Counted from the stretch's first letter, positions 1 through 5,439 are shown. The stretch is DNA of 5,439 nt from Candidatus Thorarchaeota archaeon (GCA_048882505.1 JBHLRO010000062.1:1-5439); one strand, 5' to 3'. Notes: generated by a model not told the origin, from the sequence alone. Numbers and translations: made by a program.

Positions 1-384
1 CCCTTTGATGCGAAACACCTGGCCTGTGGTGACGGGGGCGTGAATGAAACGCTCTTTGAGAAGGGAGGACGACACCACCAACGTGTATTTTGGATCAGTG
101 GGTCGAAACACCACGGTACGAGCGACTTGTTTCCGAATACCTTGACACTGCACGAAATCACCTACCTTCACGTTCAAGTTGTCACGAATCATTCGATCCA
201 TCCGAATAATGGGTAATTTGTCATCCACCCCTTTCGTGGCGAACACTTGCACCCCGATCCTGGGGTTTTTGCCCTCGGGTGAGATTGCAAGGTAGTCAGC
301 GCGGTCAAGGCCGTACAGGAGCATTTGGGAGGGCTCCATTCGTACGAACCCCTGGCCTTCATCGCTCGGATAGGCGTGGGCCAG
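1..384 (-). CDS. CDC48/VCP/VAT-type N-terminal domain protein (CDC48_N double-psi barrel plus start of CDC48_2). Runs off the left edge and lacks its own start codon; any AAA domain is outside the window.
   Basis: Manual translation 384->1: LAHAYPSDEGQGFVRMEPSQMLLYGLDRADYLAISPEGKNPRIGVQVFATKGVDDKLPIIRMDRMIRDNLNVKVGDFVQCQGIRKQVARTVVFRPTDPKYTLVVSSLLKERFIHAPVTTGQVFRIKG. This matches the archaeal CDC48 N-domain pattern (VAEAYxxDxGxGxxRxxP...IIRMDxxxRxNxxVxxGDxV...VVxxP...LxxRxxxxPVxxG). The frame is closed upstream by TGA at 403-405 with no ATG before the homologous region. Absent from the ORF track. Confidence 0.85.
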   Translation of the reverse strand, partial: MAHAYPSDEGQGFVRMEPSQMLLYGLDRADYLAISPEGKNPRIGVQVFATKGVDDKLPIIRMDRMIRDNLNVKVGDFVQCQGIRKQVARTVVFRPTDPKYTLVVSSSLLKERFIHAPVTTGQVFRIKG

Positions 385-398
385 ATCAGATACAGCAG
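384..398. repeat. Left copy of imperfect 15-bp direct repeat flanking the AT-rich insert
   Basis: gatcagatacagcag (384-398) vs gagcaggtacagcag (2653-2667): 13/15 identical, same orientation, each near a GC/AT transition. On the minus strand they encode LLYLI and LLYLL. Confidence 0.55.
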
Positions 399-551
399 GG
401 AATCAATGATCGCCAATATCTATTGATACTATTTTGGAACAATTCTTGGTTTAAGATCGATAATCCAGTATTTCTTGTTTCAATTTCAGGTTTCATGATC
501 GATGTGATGTTTTTTAATAGACTCTCCATACTCGGTGAGATCAGGTTAATC

Positions 552-937
552 TTAATTTTTCTTGTCATATAATGATAGTAAATCACCAATAGGAGATATG
601 CATAAATAATGAATCGATTTACCTCTTCTTTTGATACAATCGTCGCGTGAGTTCCTTTCTGTGCAGCTTCCTAAATGCTATCTAAGCGGTCACCAAGGAA
701 TTTGATATGTGATCCGACTAAATCATTGAAACGCTTCGATTCACTTGATTCTTCAACAAAGGCCATAATTCTATTAATATAGTTGCTTTTCGCTAATTTT
801 AATAACTTCTCTTCTTCATCAATGACCTTCTTCTCATCTTCACGAGGAGAATATACCGCATCTGCTAAATCCTACTAGATTCTTCTCAAATTATGAACAG
901 CATTCGATCAGTCTACTGGATTTTCTGATTTTAAATT
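552..937 (-). pseudogene. 5'-truncated pseudogene of a conserved helical protein resembling the HEPN/DUF4145-like C-terminal domain of AbiTii-type defence proteins
   Basis: One frame reads NLKSENPVD*SNAVHNLRRI**DLADAVYSPREDEKKVIDEEEKLLKLAKSNYINRIMAFVEESSESKRFNDLVGSHIKFLGDRLDSI*EAAQKGTHATIVSKEEVNRFIIYAYLL. After a 1-nt shift near 591 it continues IGDLLSLYDKKN* (TAA 552-554). Stops are at 908-910 (TGA), 875-877, 872-874 and 671-673 (TAG). It matches a family I recall with motifs SENPEDWSNAVHSCRRILQDLAD, NYINR, GSHLxFLGDRLD, AQKGSH and YLLVGD. The pseudogene call is firm; the family name is from memory. Confidence 0.7.
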
Positions 938-1014
938 TGAAGGGGAAATGAGTAGGATAATTCCTAAAATTTGTTTGCTGCTAAGCACCTCACTTATTTT
1001 TATTCACTGTTTAT

Positions 1015-1536
1015 TTATGGTTCTACACCTTCAAAATAATAAACATCTACAGCGTCCACTGCTCCACTTCCATAACCATATATACTATCATTTATCCAGA
1101 TATTTACCCTGATTATTTTCCCTGTATATCCGAAAGTATATGATTGCCATGAGGTTGTAAGAGTAAATATCTCAGAACCACCACCGCCGCCGCCTTCAGT
1201 ATAAATATGTAATCGTAATTTCATTGTGCTATCAGGTGATAAACTTTTAGATTTAACTTTTAACACCCAATATTCACTCGGTTGCCCAGAATAAGTTTGA
1301 AAAATCTGTCCTGCGGTAGTTATGTTTGCACTATAATCACCTTCAAAAGCATCAGTACAACGTGAAGTACTTGAAGACTCACTCCAATATACTAAATCGG
1401 AAGATGAGTACCAAGACTCTAAACCTCCATCATTTACTATTGAAACCTTCTTAAGAGCCTGTGTTTGTATGGGAAAAACCATCAAAAGAGCTATTCCTAT
1501 AAACAGCGCCATAAAAACATATCGTCTATTTATCAT
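1015..1536 (-). CDS. Secreted CBM4/9-like (galactose-binding-like beta-sandwich) protein, 173 aa, paralog 2
   Basis: Best start is ATG 1536 (MINRRYVFMALFIGIALLMVFPIQTQA|LKK), preceded by RBS-like GGAGCTGA just after the upstream stop. It has a Sec-type signal peptide and the motifs IVNDGGLESW, AFEGDYSA, QTY, LTTSWQSYTF and AVDAVDV typical of CBM_4_9-like folds. No catalytic or membrane-anchor domain is seen. Confidence 0.8.
   Translation of the reverse strand: MINRRYVFMALFIGIALLMVFPIQTQALKKVSIVNDGGLESWYSSSDLVYWSESSSTSRCTDAFEGDYSANITTAGQIFQTYSGQPSEYWVLKVKSKSLSPDSTMKLRLHIYTEGGGGGGSEIFTLTTSWQSYTFGYTGKIIRVNIWINDSIYGYGSGAVDAVDVYYFEGVEP
1177..1194 (-). repeat. (GGC)3(GGT)3 triplet run encoding Gly6
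   Basis: Plus strand accaccaccgccgccgcc; the protein reads EGGGGGGSE. Confidence 0.9.
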
Positions 1537-1550
1537 CTTCTCAGCTCCGT

Positions 1551-2087
1551 TTATGGATCTACTTCCAGCCAACCAAAATCAAGGGCATCTATTAGAACAT
1601 GAGGTGTTATCTCATAACATCCAACCATGATTCCAGTTGGAATCCCTGTATAACTGTTTGAAAAAGAAGTCCACGATGTTGAAGTAACATCTTTGGTTGA
1701 AGAATCATATCCACCTTCATATAAAATAACTAATATTATCCCCGTATAGGACCCTGCCGATTCCAGCCGGGCTTTCAATCTTAATGTCCAAGTACGTGAA
1801 GATAATCCAGAATAGTCTTGGGATATCCATTCTGCTTGAACATCGAATTCAACACTATAAGACCCACTGTAAGGTATAGGATTTTTTAAATAAGTCCCAC
1901 CTACATTTTTTTCATCCCAGTAAGTCAGGTCATTTTCATCATTCCAGTATTCGACACTACCATCAGTTATTATTGAATGCCATTTGAGAGCTGATACTTG
2001 TGTCACAGGAAATGACATAAAGAGAGCTATTCCCAGAGATAACGCCAGAAAGGCGTTTCGTTTTGTCATCAATTTTTGTATTTTCAT
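1551..2087 (-). CDS. Secreted CBM4/9-like protein, 178 aa, paralog 1
   Basis: ATG 2087 with AGGTGA 7 nt upstream. Signal peptide ...AFLALSLGIALFMSFPVTQVSA|LKW aligns with paralog 2 (GIAL.M.FP....ALK..SI..DG..E.W....DL.YW.E; YSGSYS ~ FEGDYS; TSTSWTSF ~ TTSWQSY; LIDALD ~ AVDAVD). Ends in VDP. Confidence 0.85.
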   Translation of the reverse strand: MKIQKLMTKRNAFLALSLGIALFMSFPVTQVSALKWHSIITDGSVEYWNDENDLTYWDEKNVGGTYLKNPIPYSGSYSVEFDVQAEWISQDYSGLSSRTWTLRLKARLESAGSYTGIILVILYEGGYDSSTKDVTSTSWTSFSNSYTGIPTGIMVGCYEITPHVLIDALDFGWLEVDP

Positions 2088-2094
2088 TTCTTTT

Positions 2095-2100
2095 TCACCT
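2095..2100 (-). promoter_or_regulatory. Shine-Dalgarno AGGTGA for the gene starting at 2087
   Basis: Minus strand AATAGGTGAAAAAGAAATG; matches the GGAGGTGA consensus at 7-nt spacing. Confidence 0.7.
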
Positions 2101-2156
2101 ATTGAATTTCACGTTTATTCTGATCATGGATCCCAGGCTTTTTCACGCATTGGTTT

Positions 2157-2273
2157 TCACTGTTTATGGTCTAAGATTGCAGCACTAGTAGGACTCGCGT
2201 GAATCCCTACAATAATTCCAAGTATTATCAACAAAGCCAAGAGTTTAGGTGTTCTAGTTATCGAATGTTCCAT
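2157..2273 (-). pseudogene. 38-aa ORF that is almost entirely a signal peptide; probable remnant of a secreted-protein gene
   Basis: MEHSITRTPKLLALLIILGIIVGIHASPTSA|AILDHKQ*, with GAAGGTGG upstream. The ATG overlaps the end of the preceding frame. Below the ORF track cutoff. Confidence 0.6.
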
Positions 2274-2604
2274 ATCCTGCGTCCACCTTCATTTTGATCA
2301 GGGGTCACTTCTTCAAATCCCCGTCTCGGTTTCTTCATTCTTCTCTGAATGAAATCGAATTTAAGCACCTTAATTGTGGGATCAAAGGCGCTACTGATCC
2401 TTTCTAGGATCTGTCTAGATTAGTATGACTCCATTTAAAAGCGATAAAGGCCCACTTTTTCACTAGGATTTCATGAAAATTAGTGAATAAATCACCAAAT
2501 GCATCGTCTAGATTTTCAAGAAATTTAGCATTTTGGGTATGATATTTGTCAAACAAAGACATCTGATAGACCTGTTTTCCTTCCATTACCTCAAATATGG
2601 TCAT
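2258..2604 (-). pseudogene. Hypothetical protein (~115 aa) with one apparent frameshift near 2404-2419
   Basis: Track ORF 2404..2604 (MTIFEV...KWSHTNL) can continue, by restoring 1 nt, into an open frame 2419->2258 (RQILERISSAFDPTIKVLKFDFIQRRMKKPRRGFEEVTPDQNEGGRRIWNIR*). That frame's end overlaps the next ATG. No family recognised. Confidence 0.45.
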
Positions 2605-2621
2605 GCTTTATGGTCATGTTT
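2596..2621. repeat. 13-bp-period tandem duplication at the right end of the AT-rich insert
   Basis: tatggtcatgctt (2596-2608) / tatggtcatgttt (2609-2621), 12/13 identical. Confidence 0.8.
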
Positions 2622-2751
2622 GGTTCGGTTTGACCCTCTTCTGGTGTTTGACGAGCAGGTACAGCAGCGTGATCCGTTGCGTGTCCGTGGGCGCAGTGAC
2701 CCGTACCACAGGCGCTAACACAATCCTCTGCAGGGGTTCCGTCTCGCTCAT
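2614..2751 (-). pseudogene. 45-aa ORF translationally coupled to the longin gene; probable detached 5' end of the CDC48-like gene
   Basis: ATG 2751-2749 overlaps the TGA of the upstream gene (ATGA). Reads MSETEPLQRIVLAPVVRVTAPTDTQRITLLYLLVKHQKRVKPNQT*. Its codon phase is the same as the CDC48-N frame at 384. Confidence 0.6.
2653..2667. repeat. Right copy of imperfect 15-bp direct repeat
   Basis: gagcaggtacagcag, 13/15 identical to 384-398. Confidence 0.55.
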
Positions 2752-3533
2752 TCCTCTTCACTGGGTACCTCGACCATGATGGTGCGCGTGTGGGATGCTT
2801 CGTCCCAGTAAACTTCATGATCCAGGCTGAAGTTCGAGAGTAACTCCTCTAGGATTTCCGTATAGAAACAGGCCCGCGGTTCCTGACATAGATGGCAGTT
2901 CTCACACTCCAACACGTACTGCGTATCGTTCCGATAGATAAAGTCGCCGTCCACCCGACTGAGCAGTCTGTCCACGAGACTCAATCGGCGCTCGATCTGC
3001 TGAGCGTGTCCGTAGGTGACCGCCTGGCGAACTAATCGCTGTGCTATCATGGCCGCTCGCTCGAACAAATCCACCTCCACAATTTCCTCTTCCATGAGCA
3101 GCCGTTCCTCCACTAGGGTGAGGATCAAGTGTAACTGAACATCGATCCCTCGCAGATAGGTCACCGCCTCCTGTTTAAACGGATCAAATTGGGTGACATC
3201 GAAAACAATGGACTGGTCGGTGTCGAGGGGAATGGTGGGGTATTGGTGACAGAACGTGTCGTGGAGGAGGGTCAGTGGATGTTCCACCCACTGGGGCCGT
3301 ACTCGAGCATCGAGCACCAAAACAAAGATGATCCCATTCTGGCAGTAAAATAACATCTGCTCCCGTCTCATCTGGATCGATTGGAGGACATCTTCCTTCA
3401 CCTGGGCGGTGAAACTAACTAACGCACTGACGAGATTGGCCTGGATCAGAGCAGACTCAGGGGCGTTCAGCTCAGGAAACGTAACGTGGAAGAGCAGCCC
3501 CCCATGTTCAATGATCGCAAATAAGGCTTTAAT
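2748..3533 (-). CDS. Longin-domain protein fused to a C-terminal Cys-containing V4R/Bet3(HNOX-like)-fold domain, ~261 aa; start codon uncertain
   Basis: The frame is open well upstream of the track's GTG 3401, to the TAA at 3612-3614. It reads IKALFAIIEHGGLLFHVTFPELNAPESALIQANLVSALVSFTAQVKEDVLQSIQMRREQMLFYCQNGIIFVLVLDARVRPQWVEHPLTLLHDTFCHQYP, which fits the longin pattern (beta-beta-alpha-beta-beta-beta-alpha; GxxLF, LxSAxxSF, IFVLxxD, FxxxY). The C-terminus has YVLECENCHLCQEPRACFYTEILEELL followed by beta strands, V4R-like. Confidence 0.75.
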   Translation of the reverse strand: MKALFAIIEHGGLLFHVTFPELNAPESALIQANLVSALVSFTAQVKEDVLQSIQMRREQMLFYCQNGIIFVLVLDARVRPQWVEHPLTLLHDTFCHQYPTIPLDTDQSIVFDVTQFDPFKQEAVTYLRGIDVQLHLILTLVEERLLMEEEIVEVDLFERAAMIAQRLVRQAVTYGHAQQIERRLSLVDRLLSRVDGDFIYRNDTQYVLECENCHLCQEPRACFYTEILEELLSNFSLDHEVYWDEASHTRTIMVEVPSEEE

Positions 3534-3540
3534 ATGCGCG

Positions 3541-3545
3541 CCTCC
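3541..3545 (-). promoter_or_regulatory. Candidate Shine-Dalgarno GGAGG, 7 nt before ATT 3533
   Basis: Minus strand GGTGGAGGCGCGCATATTAAAGCC, immediately ahead of longin strand beta1. Confidence 0.45.
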
Positions 3546-3759
3546 ACCGAGCGTGTCTGGGGAGGTGATCTGGTTGGTCTCCGGGCATTCACCCCCGCGC
3601 GCTTGCCCATCTTACCAGGTGAGGAGCGAGTCCCATTTTTTTCCATCGGTCACTCCCCTATCCTCCTTATCTACTCGACATCCCTCTATGCCATGGATCC
3701 GATTCTAACATCTGCCTTCAGATCAGAAAATCCGACCCTTAACCCTTTGGAATGTCCGT

Positions 3760-4524: not shown

Positions 4525-5250
4525 TCATCTGTTTAGTAGAAGAAAAGGTATGCATGCTGTAAAAACCAGCAATTTGATACCTAAGTATCCTTCCTACGAT
4601 GATGCCCTATATTAGTTTTACCATCCGAATTATCTACTCCCCTTTTCTTTTAAAGCACGATTCATCTAGTATACCTACTTTCAAGCCTTATAGGAGGGTG
4701 AAGGATTTACACCAAGAGGATTCTCAAGAGGATACAAGATGAGGATTAATCTTACTGTAACATTCCCTGATATATCAAAATCATGCAGATTAAATTCCTT
4801 ATTTCAGCTTTTTAGATTAATTGATTCCTTCTTGCTCTCGATTCACTGATTGCAGGTATTTCTCAGATCACAAGGATCAGGTCTAGCAAAAAAAACCTCC
4901 ATAGATCAAGACAAATAAGCTACCAAATCATTCAAACATATATCTTTTATAAGGTATCTAATAATAAGCTCATAGGTATTTGTATAACAAATTTCAGGTT
5001 GATAGGGAGTTGAGAAGAGGTAGAGAATGACAAGTCCCTGTTTTCGATTGAAAATACAAAGGCGGGAAGATTAATATTCTTCCGATTCACAAGGGTTCAA
5101 TAAGGTTTCTAATAGAATGATTTCTGACTTAGACACAATATCAATTTGAAACAATCTTTGGATTGATCATACTACGAAATGGAGAGAAGTTGCGCATTGG
5201 TTTCGGGGGATAACTGCGTAGCCCTGGGGGCGCATCACTGACTGTCACGG

Positions 5251-5439
5251 TTAGGTCCAGCCTTTGATAACCTGTAAGACGAATTCCATCACGTCGATAT
5301 CGGTCTGTCCGGGGCCGTTCTCAGTAAGGAAGTTGGCAATCTTGGCGTGATCTTGGATGTCTAGGTTATCAAACACCTGGGGATGAAGGCGTTGGAGGCG
5401 GTTTAGCAACATGGCCCCTTGCGTAACCTGAATCAAACT
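5251..5439 (-). CDS. C-terminal part of a hypothetical protein entering from the right edge
   Basis: Frame open to the window edge: SLIQVTQGAMLLNRLQRLHPQVFDNLDIQDHAKIANFLTENGPGQTDIDVMEFVLQVIKGWT*. Helical, protein-like composition with GC-rich codon usage. Confidence 0.65.
   Translation of the reverse strand, partial: SLIQVTQGAMLLNRLQRLHPQVFDNLDIQDHAKIANFLTENGPGQTDIDVMEFVLQVIKGWT

What the first reader, a model, noticed from the sequence alone, without database searches (positions are those of the whole stretch)
1..2751. CDC48-like gene split by a 2.27-kb AT-rich insert; removing it restores one ORF
Seen: the 45-aa coupled ORF at 2751 (...QRITLLYLLV) and the start-less CDC48-N frame at 384 (AHAYPSDEGQG...) are in the same codon phase. 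Deleting 384-2651 (2268 bp, a multiple of 3) gives MSETEPLQRIVLAPVVRVTAPTDTQRITLLYLLVAHAYPSDEGQGFVRM..., which supplies the hydrophobic first strand (LxVAxAY) expected of CDC48_N. A 13/15 direct repeat (384-398, 2653-2667) lies at both composition breaks. A 13/15 match is not rare across 5 kb, so its weight comes from its position. Inference: integration or TSD-generating insertion of cargo DNA with no mobility gene. The left end offers a possible replacement start (TTG 416, MAIIDSLLYLI) that is 1 nt out of frame.
Basis: partly seen in the sequence, partly recalled or inferred. Interest (0 to 1): 0.75.

Follow-up and report, generated by a model that had tools for sequence, protein, structure and literature searches.

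The report
Split Cdc48-N pseudogene in alien island
The two gene pieces really are remnants of one small ATPase-less "Cdc48 N-domain" gene, but it is a broken copy lying in foreign GC-rich DNA of an Asgard archaeon, about 60 codons are missing, and the DNA between the pieces looks like the host's own, so this is ordinary gene decay and not an excisable insert.

Summary
The raw observation holds. A 13/15 repeat lies near both junctions.

The link between the pieces is supported. An intact 277-aa paralogue on contig C1 starts with a peptide homologous to the 45-aa ORF and continues into a region 57% identical to the CDC48_N frame.

The "insert whose removal restores the gene" reading is not supported, for five reasons:
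- The C1 paralogue and the only outside relative (P0002/L033) both carry a ~60-residue beta subdomain between the two parts. The window has no trace of it.
- The repeat copies are 2269 bp apart, so repeat-mediated excision gives the wrong frame.
- orf45's homology runs ~20 nt past the proposed splice point.
- The genome is 41% GC. The "insert" has a native tetranucleotide signature, while the flanks are extreme outliers.
- There is no recombinase, terminal inverted repeat, tRNA, intron or BHB motif, and no empty site in 82 related genomes or in metagenomes.

The protein is a stand-alone N-domain protein, not a Cdc48 ATPase. Earlier notes of this scan cover this contig and the C1 paralogue.

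The parts
1..383 (-). 3' remnant of the stand-alone Cdc48 N-domain gene ('G3'). It covers the double-psi barrel and the start of the beta-clam, equivalent to residues 98-225 of the intact paralogue. It has no usable start and runs off the contig end.
   Evidence: Pfam CDC48_N E 8.3e-12. 57% identity to C1par residues 98-225. DNA homology to the paralogue begins at 383/384. Groups with C1par at 99/96 support.
384..398 (.). Left copy of the 13/15 direct repeat. It lies just outside the gene-derived sequence.
   Evidence: D13. No homology to the paralogue upstream of 383.
384..2631 (.). Intervening segment of about 2.25 kb at 36% GC with a host-typical signature. The right end is uncertain (2614-2652).
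   Evidence: Tetranucleotide correlation with the genome is 0.889, the 72nd percentile of genome windows. Change-points at 401 and 2622. No DNA or protein relatives in 21 sister genomes. No second copy in this genome.
386..880 (-). Decayed ORF-like frame inside the segment, with an internal TAG and no start. Its stop (388-386) abuts the left junction.
   Evidence: Frame 1018 has few stops compared with the other frames. No paralogue in the genome.
1015..1572 (-). Secreted protein gene (probable start ATG 1536): signal peptide plus a CBM_4_9-like beta-sandwich.
   Evidence: Atlas feature score 0.93 and structural TM about 0.7 to CBM_4_9 clusters (a lead only).
1551..2087 (-). Paralogue of the secreted protein gene (37% identity).
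   Evidence: Only itself found in the 5.8-billion-protein index.
2157..2273 (-). 38-codon ORF resembling the signal peptide of the two secreted paralogues. Probably the stump of a third, internally deleted copy.
   Evidence: Sequence comparison. Shared 3'-end motif (D2/D3). This is my inference.
2404..2604 (-). 66-codon orphan ORF at the right edge of the segment.
   Evidence: no family, no paralogue.
2614..2751 (-). orf45, the 5' remnant of the same gene ('G5'). About 40 codons (2751 to ~2632) are gene-derived. The frame then reads a few codons into the junction and stops.
   Evidence: Homology to the C1par N-terminus and to the L033 protein ('VKHQKR' vs 'IRHQRR', 67 of 5000 shuffles).
2653..2667 (.). 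Right copy of the 13/15 repeat. It lies inside gene-derived sequence (codons TLLYLL).
2748..3611 (-). Longin-like gene of the GC-rich island, translationally coupled to orf45. Its N-terminal ~70 codons have no start codon after an in-frame TAA (3614-3612).
   Evidence: 47% identity over 283 residues to the 297-aa C7 paralogue, reaching window position 3599. The first start codon is GTG 3401. Faint, sub-threshold longin hits in the paralogue.

Best explanation
The window holds the two remnants of one gene for a small, ATPase-less Cdc48/VAT-type N-domain protein. Its architecture is: N-terminal peptide, small beta subdomain, double-psi barrel, beta-clam. The gene belongs to a GC-rich (52-57%), compositionally foreign, strain-specific island in a 41%-GC Hodarchaeales-type Asgard genome.

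An illegitimate rearrangement broke this copy. About 60 codons (the beta subdomain and part of the linker) were lost, and about 2.25 kb of host-like DNA now lies in their place. That DNA carries a small array of secreted CBM-like protein genes and a decayed ORF. What remains is a pseudogene: a 45-codon stump (orf45) and a start-less N-domain frame. Their shared reading phase is a coincidence with a one-in-three chance, and the 2268-bp 'excision' does not rebuild the ancestral protein.

Shown here: the homologies, the missing segment, the composition polarity, the frame arithmetic and the absence of mobility features. Inferred: the order of events, the recombination mechanism and the loss of function.
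For: 1. One gene, two pieces. C1par (277 aa) matches orf45 at residues 8-38 and the window frame at residues 98-225 (57% identical). In a six-frame search of the genome, the best non-self hit of orf45 is exactly that N-terminus (27.3 bits; next best 23.1).
2. Missing segment. C1par residues 39-97 have no counterpart in the window or the genome. P0002/L033, the only outside relative below 1e-30 among 1.84 billion representatives, carries the segment and the N-peptide. The tree is ((window, C1par) 99/96, P0002) 90/92, so by parsimony the segment was lost here. AlphaFold places a beta subdomain at residues 48-83 (pLDDT 57-75) ahead of a confident N-domain at 94-270.
3. Junctions. The left homology boundary is at 383/384. 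The right is near 2632 by peptide homology and 2622 by composition.
4. Frame. Deletion through the repeat removes 2269 bp and gives the wrong frame.
5. Polarity. The genome is 41.1% GC, and only 0.6% of 400-bp windows reach 52%. Tetranucleotide correlation with the genome is 0.889 for the intervening segment (72nd percentile), against 0.07 and 0.05 for the flanks (0.1 percentile).
6. The island is degraded elsewhere too. The longin-like gene lacks a start for ~70 conserved codons after an in-frame TAA. The canonical slot for the gene between the nuclease and orf62 is empty in this island.
7. No mobility or splicing features were found: no Pfam, PHROG or PADLOC recombinase, no Rfam family, no tRNA, no terminal inverted repeats, no BHB motif.
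Against: - The 13/15 repeat touching the left homology boundary and lying near the right one is unlikely by chance (3 of 2000 shuffles; about 0.005 expected from the window-wide rate). It hints at a short-homology or target-duplicating event that this explanation does not use.
- Both remnants are still open frames (134 and 45 codons), so the break is recent, or the N-domain piece may still be made from ATG 339.
- Short stand-alone N-domain proteins without any leader exist (P0004-P0006), so a protein without the beta subdomain is not structurally impossible.
- With only three family members, the 'ancestral architecture' rests on a thin tree.
- Reads and the assembly graph could not be inspected.
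Confidence: 0.6

Rival explanations
1. Short-homology (Campbell-type) or target-duplicating integration. A circular or linear piece of host-derived DNA recombined at the 15-nt sequence CTGCTGTAYCTGMTC and left the two repeat copies. The target was an already dead copy of the gene, internally deleted and frame-shifted.
For: The repeat lies at both junction neighbourhoods (3 of 2000 shuffles), and its left copy abuts the homology boundary at 383/384 exactly. Another GC-rich island of this genome was read in an earlier scan note as circle-mediated integration into a dead gene (a lead only).
Against: The predicted pre-insertion allele is out of frame and lacks ~65 codons, so an extra earlier event is needed. 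orf45's similarity to relatives continues past the right copy ('KHQKR'), and the composition break is at 2622. The copies differ at 2 of 15 positions although both gene remnants are still open. The statistical test is post hoc.
Confidence: 0.13
2. A cargo element inserted precisely into an intact gene with a target-site duplication, and its removal (2268 bp) restores a functional ORF.
For: Same phase and an uninterrupted fusion whose junction 'LLVAHAY' resembles the first strand of short stand-alone N-domain proteins such as P0005. The repeat lies near both breaks.
Against: The repeat spacing of 2269 is incompatible with a 2268-bp excision. About 60 residues present in both nearest relatives are absent. 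There is no recombinase, TIR or tRNA. No empty site was found in 82 genomes of the class, GTDB representatives or JGI metagenomes. The 'cargo' is host-like and single-copy.
Confidence: 0.06
3. Not an insertion into a gene. Two separate alien fragments, each a piece of a different copy of the gene family, landed on either side of a native 2.25-kb locus.
For: Small alien patches embedded in host-like DNA recur in this genome, for example the 0.9-kb orf96+orf142 patch on C22 at 88% nt identity. The intervening DNA is host-like.
Against: It requires two independent events that place the 5' and 3' parts of the same rare family in the correct order, the same strand and 2.25 kb apart. The intervening genes are not conserved at any locus in 21 sister genomes.
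Confidence: 0.1
4. Assembly artefact. C62 is a chimeric or collapsed path in the de Bruijn graph, and the two pieces are not neighbours in the real genome.
For: The window is a whole 5.4-kb contig. Its right end shares a 77-mer with C44 and its left end has no partner. Its two ends are neighbours (~276 nt apart) in the paralogous C1 island, which suggests a cycle or duplication in the graph.
Against: The assembly uses k = 77 (50 end-to-end 77-mer links). The junctions share only 8 exact bases, far too few to create a false join. The composition changes lie inside the contig, not at a graph node.
Confidence: 0.08
5. RNA-level removal. The 2.27 kb is an intron (group I/II or tRNA-type BHB) spliced from the mRNA.
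For: Earlier scan notes report BHB-type introns in mRNAs of this genome (a lead only). The length of 2268 is a multiple of 3.
Against: No Rfam family at E <= 1. Pairing between the junctions is no better than shuffled controls (78% of shuffles at least as stable), and only three relaxed BHB-pattern hits appear. The segment carries its own intact genes with signal peptides.
Confidence: 0.01

Closest known systems
VAT-N / Cdc48 (p97) N-domain: double-psi beta-barrel plus beta-clam (PDB 1cz4; Pfam PF02359 and PF02933)
   Same: The window frame and its paralogue match CDC48_N above the Pfam cut-off. The paralogue also shows a weak CDC48_2 match and is modelled confidently as barrel plus clam.
   Different: There are no AAA+ D1/D2 modules. 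The intact paralogue stops at 277 aa, and the nearest relatives are 190-300-aa stand-alone proteins. It also has an extra ~95-residue leader (peptide plus small beta subdomain), found so far only in C1par, P0002/L033 and, as a stump, in the window.
Developmentally excised intervening elements in bacterial genes (Bacillus subtilis skin element in sigK; Anabaena nifD element). From my own knowledge; not checked in papers here.
   Same: A gene is split into two co-oriented pieces by kilobases of unrelated DNA flanked by short direct repeats.
   Different: Those elements encode a site-specific recombinase, have exact repeats, and excise to give the complete gene. Here there is no recombinase, the repeat is imperfect and out of register with the frame, and ~60 codons are missing.
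Integrated mobile elements of Heimdall-group archaea (aloposons, HeimV/HeimM; Wu et al. 2022, PMC8813620)
   Same: Strain-specific DNA inserted in a Heimdall-group genome.
   Different: According to the paper, aloposons carry tandem giant genes, a ParA-like ATPase module and integrate at tRNA sites. The segment here is 2.25 kb, host-like in composition, and has no tRNA and no such genes.
Ordinary pseudogenisation in horizontally acquired islands by illegitimate recombination or indels
   Same: Alien composition, scattered diverged paralogous copies (C1, C7, C22, C44), a second damaged gene in the same island, and loss of internal codons.
   Different: Nothing essential differs. The unusual detail is that the filler is host-like DNA with intact genes, and that a 15-nt imperfect repeat marks the junction neighbourhoods.

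Membership tests
Cdc48/VAT/p97 AAA+ ATPase | N-domain (double-psi barrel, Pfam CDC48_N) | tested here: met
   Window frame E 8.3e-12, 45.6 bits against a cut-off of 35.1. Paralogue E 3.6e-12.
Cdc48/VAT/p97 AAA+ ATPase | Tandem AAA+ modules D1 and D2 following the N-domain | tested here: not met
   The window's gene runs off the contig at the equivalent of residue 225, so it cannot be read directly. Its sister paralogue (99/96 support) ends at 277 aa with no AAA module, and so does P0002 at 263 aa. True ~770-aa Cdc48 genes of this genome are only ~30-34% identical.
Stand-alone leader + N-domain family (C1par / P0002 type) | N-terminal peptide of the type (K/R)I(V/L)(V/L)xP... | tested here: met
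   orf45 against C1par: score 59, reached by 0-1 of 5000 shuffles. The motif is also present in the L033 protein.
Stand-alone leader + N-domain family (C1par / P0002 type) | Small beta subdomain (~residues 45-90) between the peptide and the barrel | tested here: not met
   No trace in the window at relaxed thresholds. It is present in C1par and P0002. The window's copy is therefore a remnant, not an intact member.
Transposon / IS element with target-site duplication | Transposase gene and terminal inverted repeats | tested here: not met
   No Pfam, PHROG or PADLOC match in the insert ORFs. No inverted pair joins the two ends. No second copy in the genome.
Transposon / IS element with target-site duplication | Direct duplication of the target flanking the element, whose removal restores the target | tested here: not met
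   A 13/15 repeat exists, but removing one copy plus the interior deletes 2269 bp, shifts the frame and still lacks ~60 codons.
Integrative element (tyrosine/serine recombinase, att sites) | Integrase gene; att core often in a tRNA gene | tested here: not met
   No integrase domain. No tRNA in the window.
Self-splicing or tRNA-type (BHB) intron | Ribozyme core, or a bulge-helix-bulge formed by the two junctions | tested here: not met
   No Rfam match at E <= 1. Junction pairing is no better than shuffles.
Intein | Continuous in-frame coding through the insert | tested here: not met
   The gene's frame stops at 2616-2614, and the insert carries many stops in that phase.

The most novel reading that the evidence does not exclude
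C62 may be most of a ~5.7-kb cycle in the assembly graph, either a small circular molecule or a tandem duplication. In this reading, alien island genes and a host-derived gene cassette were joined by recombination at a 15-nt imperfect homology. That would be a snapshot of integrase-free, circle-mediated gene shuffling in a Heimdall-group archaeon. The hint is that the contig's two ends (residue ~225 of the gene, and codon ~6 of orf62) are direct neighbours, ~276 nt apart, in the paralogous C1 island.
Probability: 0.1. Interest if true: 0.5.

Novelty: new member of a known kind. Interest (0 to 1): 0.22.

Why it matters
Mostly as a correction.
- The locus should be annotated as a disrupted stand-alone N-domain gene, not as a Cdc48 ATPase and not as a gene carrying an excisable element.
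- The gene caller's 113-aa product (P0003) is a truncated fragment.
- The GC-rich DNA, not the AT-rich DNA, is the foreign part of this genome. Readers of other windows of this genome should apply the same polarity.
- The small family behind the gene (N-peptide, beta subdomain, barrel, clam), seen next to an ERCC4-HhH nuclease on C1 and ~4 kb from one on the outside contig (L033), is rare: three members among billions of proteins. It may deserve its own look, and the intact C1 copy is the one to study.

Tried and rejected
- Word-index search with the paralogue and with a secreted-protein ORF: each found only itself.
- Search for an intact orthologue or empty site. The 82 other genomes of the class gave only ordinary ~770-aa Cdc48 genes. 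GTDB representative contigs gave none. JGI metagenomes gave only the distant L033. IMG/VR gave none for the N-domain or the longin-like gene.
- Insert DNA or protein in sister genomes: nothing beyond 40-nt chance hits and one weak protein hit.
- Rfam at E <= 1: no hit. BHB scan and junction duplex against shuffles: negative.
- PADLOC and PHROGs on eight island proteins: no hit.
- Self-comparison of the paralogue's leader with its C-terminal clam, to test an Nc-Nn-Nc duplication: no BLASTP alignment. AlphaFold gives only moderate confidence for the leader and none for residues 1-31. Whether the N-peptide belongs to the lost subdomain therefore stays open.
- Search for the gene's missing C-terminus or a partner for the contig's left end: none in the bin.
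- Searches failed on a coordinate slip of mine and were repeated correctly.


Full report
CONTEXT
The window is an entire contig (C62, 5439 bp) of an 83-contig, 4.32-Mb assembly. Earlier notes of this scan call the organism a Heimdall-group, Hodarchaeales-type Asgard archaeon (I did not verify this). The assembly behaves like a k = 77 de Bruijn graph. Fifty pairs of contig ends share exact 77-mers. C62's right end links to C44, which links on to C42. C62's left end has no partner in the bin.

OBSERVATION
- The 45-codon ORF at 2751-2614 (minus) overlaps the stop of the upstream gene in an ATGA motif.
- The minus frame 402-1 is open, has no ATG/GTG/TTG before ATG 339, and matches Pfam CDC48_N above the curated cut-off.
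- Both frames have the same phase, and deleting 384-2651 (2268 bp) gives the quoted fusion.
- The 13/15 repeat at 384-398 / 2653-2667 is real.

Three details weaken the picture.
- The repeat copies are 2269 bp apart. Any excision in the repeat's register gives '...LLYL[L/I]WPTPIRAMK', which is the wrong frame.
- The repeat is one of 38 such pairs in the window and ranks 13th of 39 repeat families. Its position near both junctions is nevertheless unusual: 3 of 2000 local shuffles, in a post-hoc test.
- Composition change-points lie at 401 (support 381-422) and 2622 (support 2589-2655). The right copy therefore sits about 30 nt inside the GC-rich side.

ARE THE TWO PIECES ONE GENE? YES.
Contig C1 carries an intact 277-aa paralogue, C1par (C1:367650-366820). 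Its residues 98-225 are 57% identical to the window frame. Its residues 8-38 match orf45 residues 9-39, with 13 of 31 identical. Only 0-1 of 5000 shuffles of orf45 reach that score. In a six-frame search of the whole genome, the best non-self hit of orf45 is exactly this N-terminus.

DOES REMOVING THE INSERT RESTORE THE GENE? NO.
C1par has about 60 residues (39-97) between the peptide and the barrel, and nothing in the window or the genome matches them. An exhaustive HMMER search of 1.84 billion representatives found only one other protein below 1e-30. This is P0002 (263 aa), encoded on metagenomic contig SDBT01011948.1 (L033), and it carries the same segment. With its GTG start it also carries a version of the N-peptide.

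The tree is ((window, C1par) 99/96, P0002) 90/92, so by parsimony the segment was present in the window's ancestor. AlphaFold models it as a small beta subdomain (residues 48-83, pLDDT 57-75) ahead of a confident barrel-plus-clam N-domain (94-270, pLDDT above 90). Residues 1-31 are not modelled with any confidence.

On the right, orf45's 'KHQKR' still has counterparts: 'KLSKK' in C1par and 'RHQRR' in L033, the latter reached by 67 of 5000 shuffles. The shared phase is most simply a one-in-three coincidence.

WHICH DNA IS FOREIGN?
The genome averages 41.1% GC, and only 0.6% of 400-bp windows reach 52%. The intervening segment (36% GC) correlates with the genome's tetranucleotide profile at r = 0.889, the 72nd percentile of genome windows. 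The flanks give r = 0.07 and 0.05, the 0.1 percentile. The split gene therefore lies in alien DNA and the filler is host-like.

The island genes have diverged copies elsewhere in the genome.
- The 345-aa gene, the ERCC4-HhH nuclease, the N-domain gene and orf62 are on C1.
- The longin-like gene is on C7 and C9.
- orf96 + orf142 lie on C22 at 88% nt identity, as an isolated 0.9-kb GC-rich patch.

The N-domain family is absent from the 82 other genomes of the class. The longin-like family, in contrast, is native to the order, and the window's copy is only 48% identical to the native-composition copy. No viral, defence or phage family matched. The island therefore looks like diverged second copies of lineage-typical genes, not a recognisable virus.

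It is damaged in other places as well.
- The longin-like gene has ~70 conserved codons with no start codon after an in-frame TAA.
- In this island the slot between the nuclease and orf62, where C1 has the N-domain gene, holds only ~52 nt.

WHAT IS THE FILLER?
All of its ORFs lie on the gene's strand.
- A 66-codon orphan ORF.
- A 38-codon stump resembling a signal peptide.
- Two intact paralogous secreted proteins (37% identical) with a CBM_4_9-like fold, by Atlas features and structure (a lead only).
- A decayed ORF whose stop (388-386) abuts the left junction.

The segment has no second copy in the genome, no relatives in 21 sister genomes, no recombinase, no terminal inverted repeats, no tRNA, no Rfam family and no BHB motif.

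MOST LIKELY HISTORY (INFERENCE)
A copy of the stand-alone N-domain gene in an acquired island was broken by illegitimate recombination, which replaced ~60 codons with ~2.25 kb of host-like DNA. The remnants are still open, so the event is recent or the 3' piece is tolerated.

The repeat keeps one variant alive: short-homology or target-duplicating integration into an already dead allele. I cannot exclude that variant. It does not rescue the claim that excision restores the gene.

An assembly chimera is unlikely, because the junctions share only 8 exact bases in a k = 77 graph.

COMPARISON WITH KNOWN THINGS
The protein part is a VAT-N/Cdc48-type N-domain. The nearest solved sequences are double-psi barrels derived from it, and 1cz4 itself. 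It is not a Cdc48 ATPase. The disruption resembles ordinary pseudogenisation in acquired islands. It lacks the defining features of IS elements, integrative elements, aloposons, introns and inteins.

VERDICT
The mechanism and the polarity are wrong, and the feature itself is ordinary. Interest is low. The intact C1 paralogue and the possible graph cycle are the only threads worth following.

Noticed in passing
window 1-3 and 5437-5439; C1:366976 and C1:366699: The two ends of contig C62 (the N-domain gene at the equivalent of residue 225, and orf62 at codon ~6) are direct neighbours, ~276 nt apart, in the paralogous C1 island. Together with the 77-mer link to C44, this suggests that C62 is a cycle or duplication in the assembly graph, closed by a short unbinned edge.
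   Followed up: partly
window 2748-3614 (minus): The longin-like gene is conserved with its 297-aa C7 paralogue up to window position 3599, but it has an in-frame TAA at 3614-3612 and no ATG/GTG/TTG until 3401. It is either N-terminally damaged or uses an unusual start.
   Followed up: partly
L001:6818-8418 (C1) and L033:5722-6540 and 10455-11114: The stand-alone leader + N-domain gene lies next to, or within 4 kb of, an ERCC4 + helix-hairpin-helix nuclease gene, both in this genome and on the only outside contig that has the family. This may be a functional pairing.
   Followed up: partly
L004:5246-6118 (C22:55245-56117): An 88%-identical copy of orf96 (four-Cys-pair zinc ribbon) plus orf142 sits as an isolated 0.9-kb GC-rich patch between ordinary membrane-protein genes. 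A 52-nt piece of its upstream region recurs 2.6 kb further on (C22:58737-58788).
   Followed up: partly
window 990-1014, 2143-2167 and the ends of ORFs at 1015, 1551, 2157: The secreted-protein genes and the 38-codon stump end in the same '...CCATAAAC...' motif. The stump looks like the signal peptide of a third paralogue joined to that 3' end, pointing to an internal deletion within a three-gene array.
   Followed up: no
window 403-418 and 3508-3523: A 15/16 direct repeat (TCAATGATCGC[C/A]AATA) links the DNA just inside the left junction to the start-less N-terminal part of the longin-like gene.
   Followed up: no
window 4556-5200: A second host-like AT-rich block (r = 0.82 with the genome signature) separates orf62 from orf142. 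Its first ~75 nt are shared with the C22 copy, so they are probably the promoter region of orf142.
   Followed up: partly
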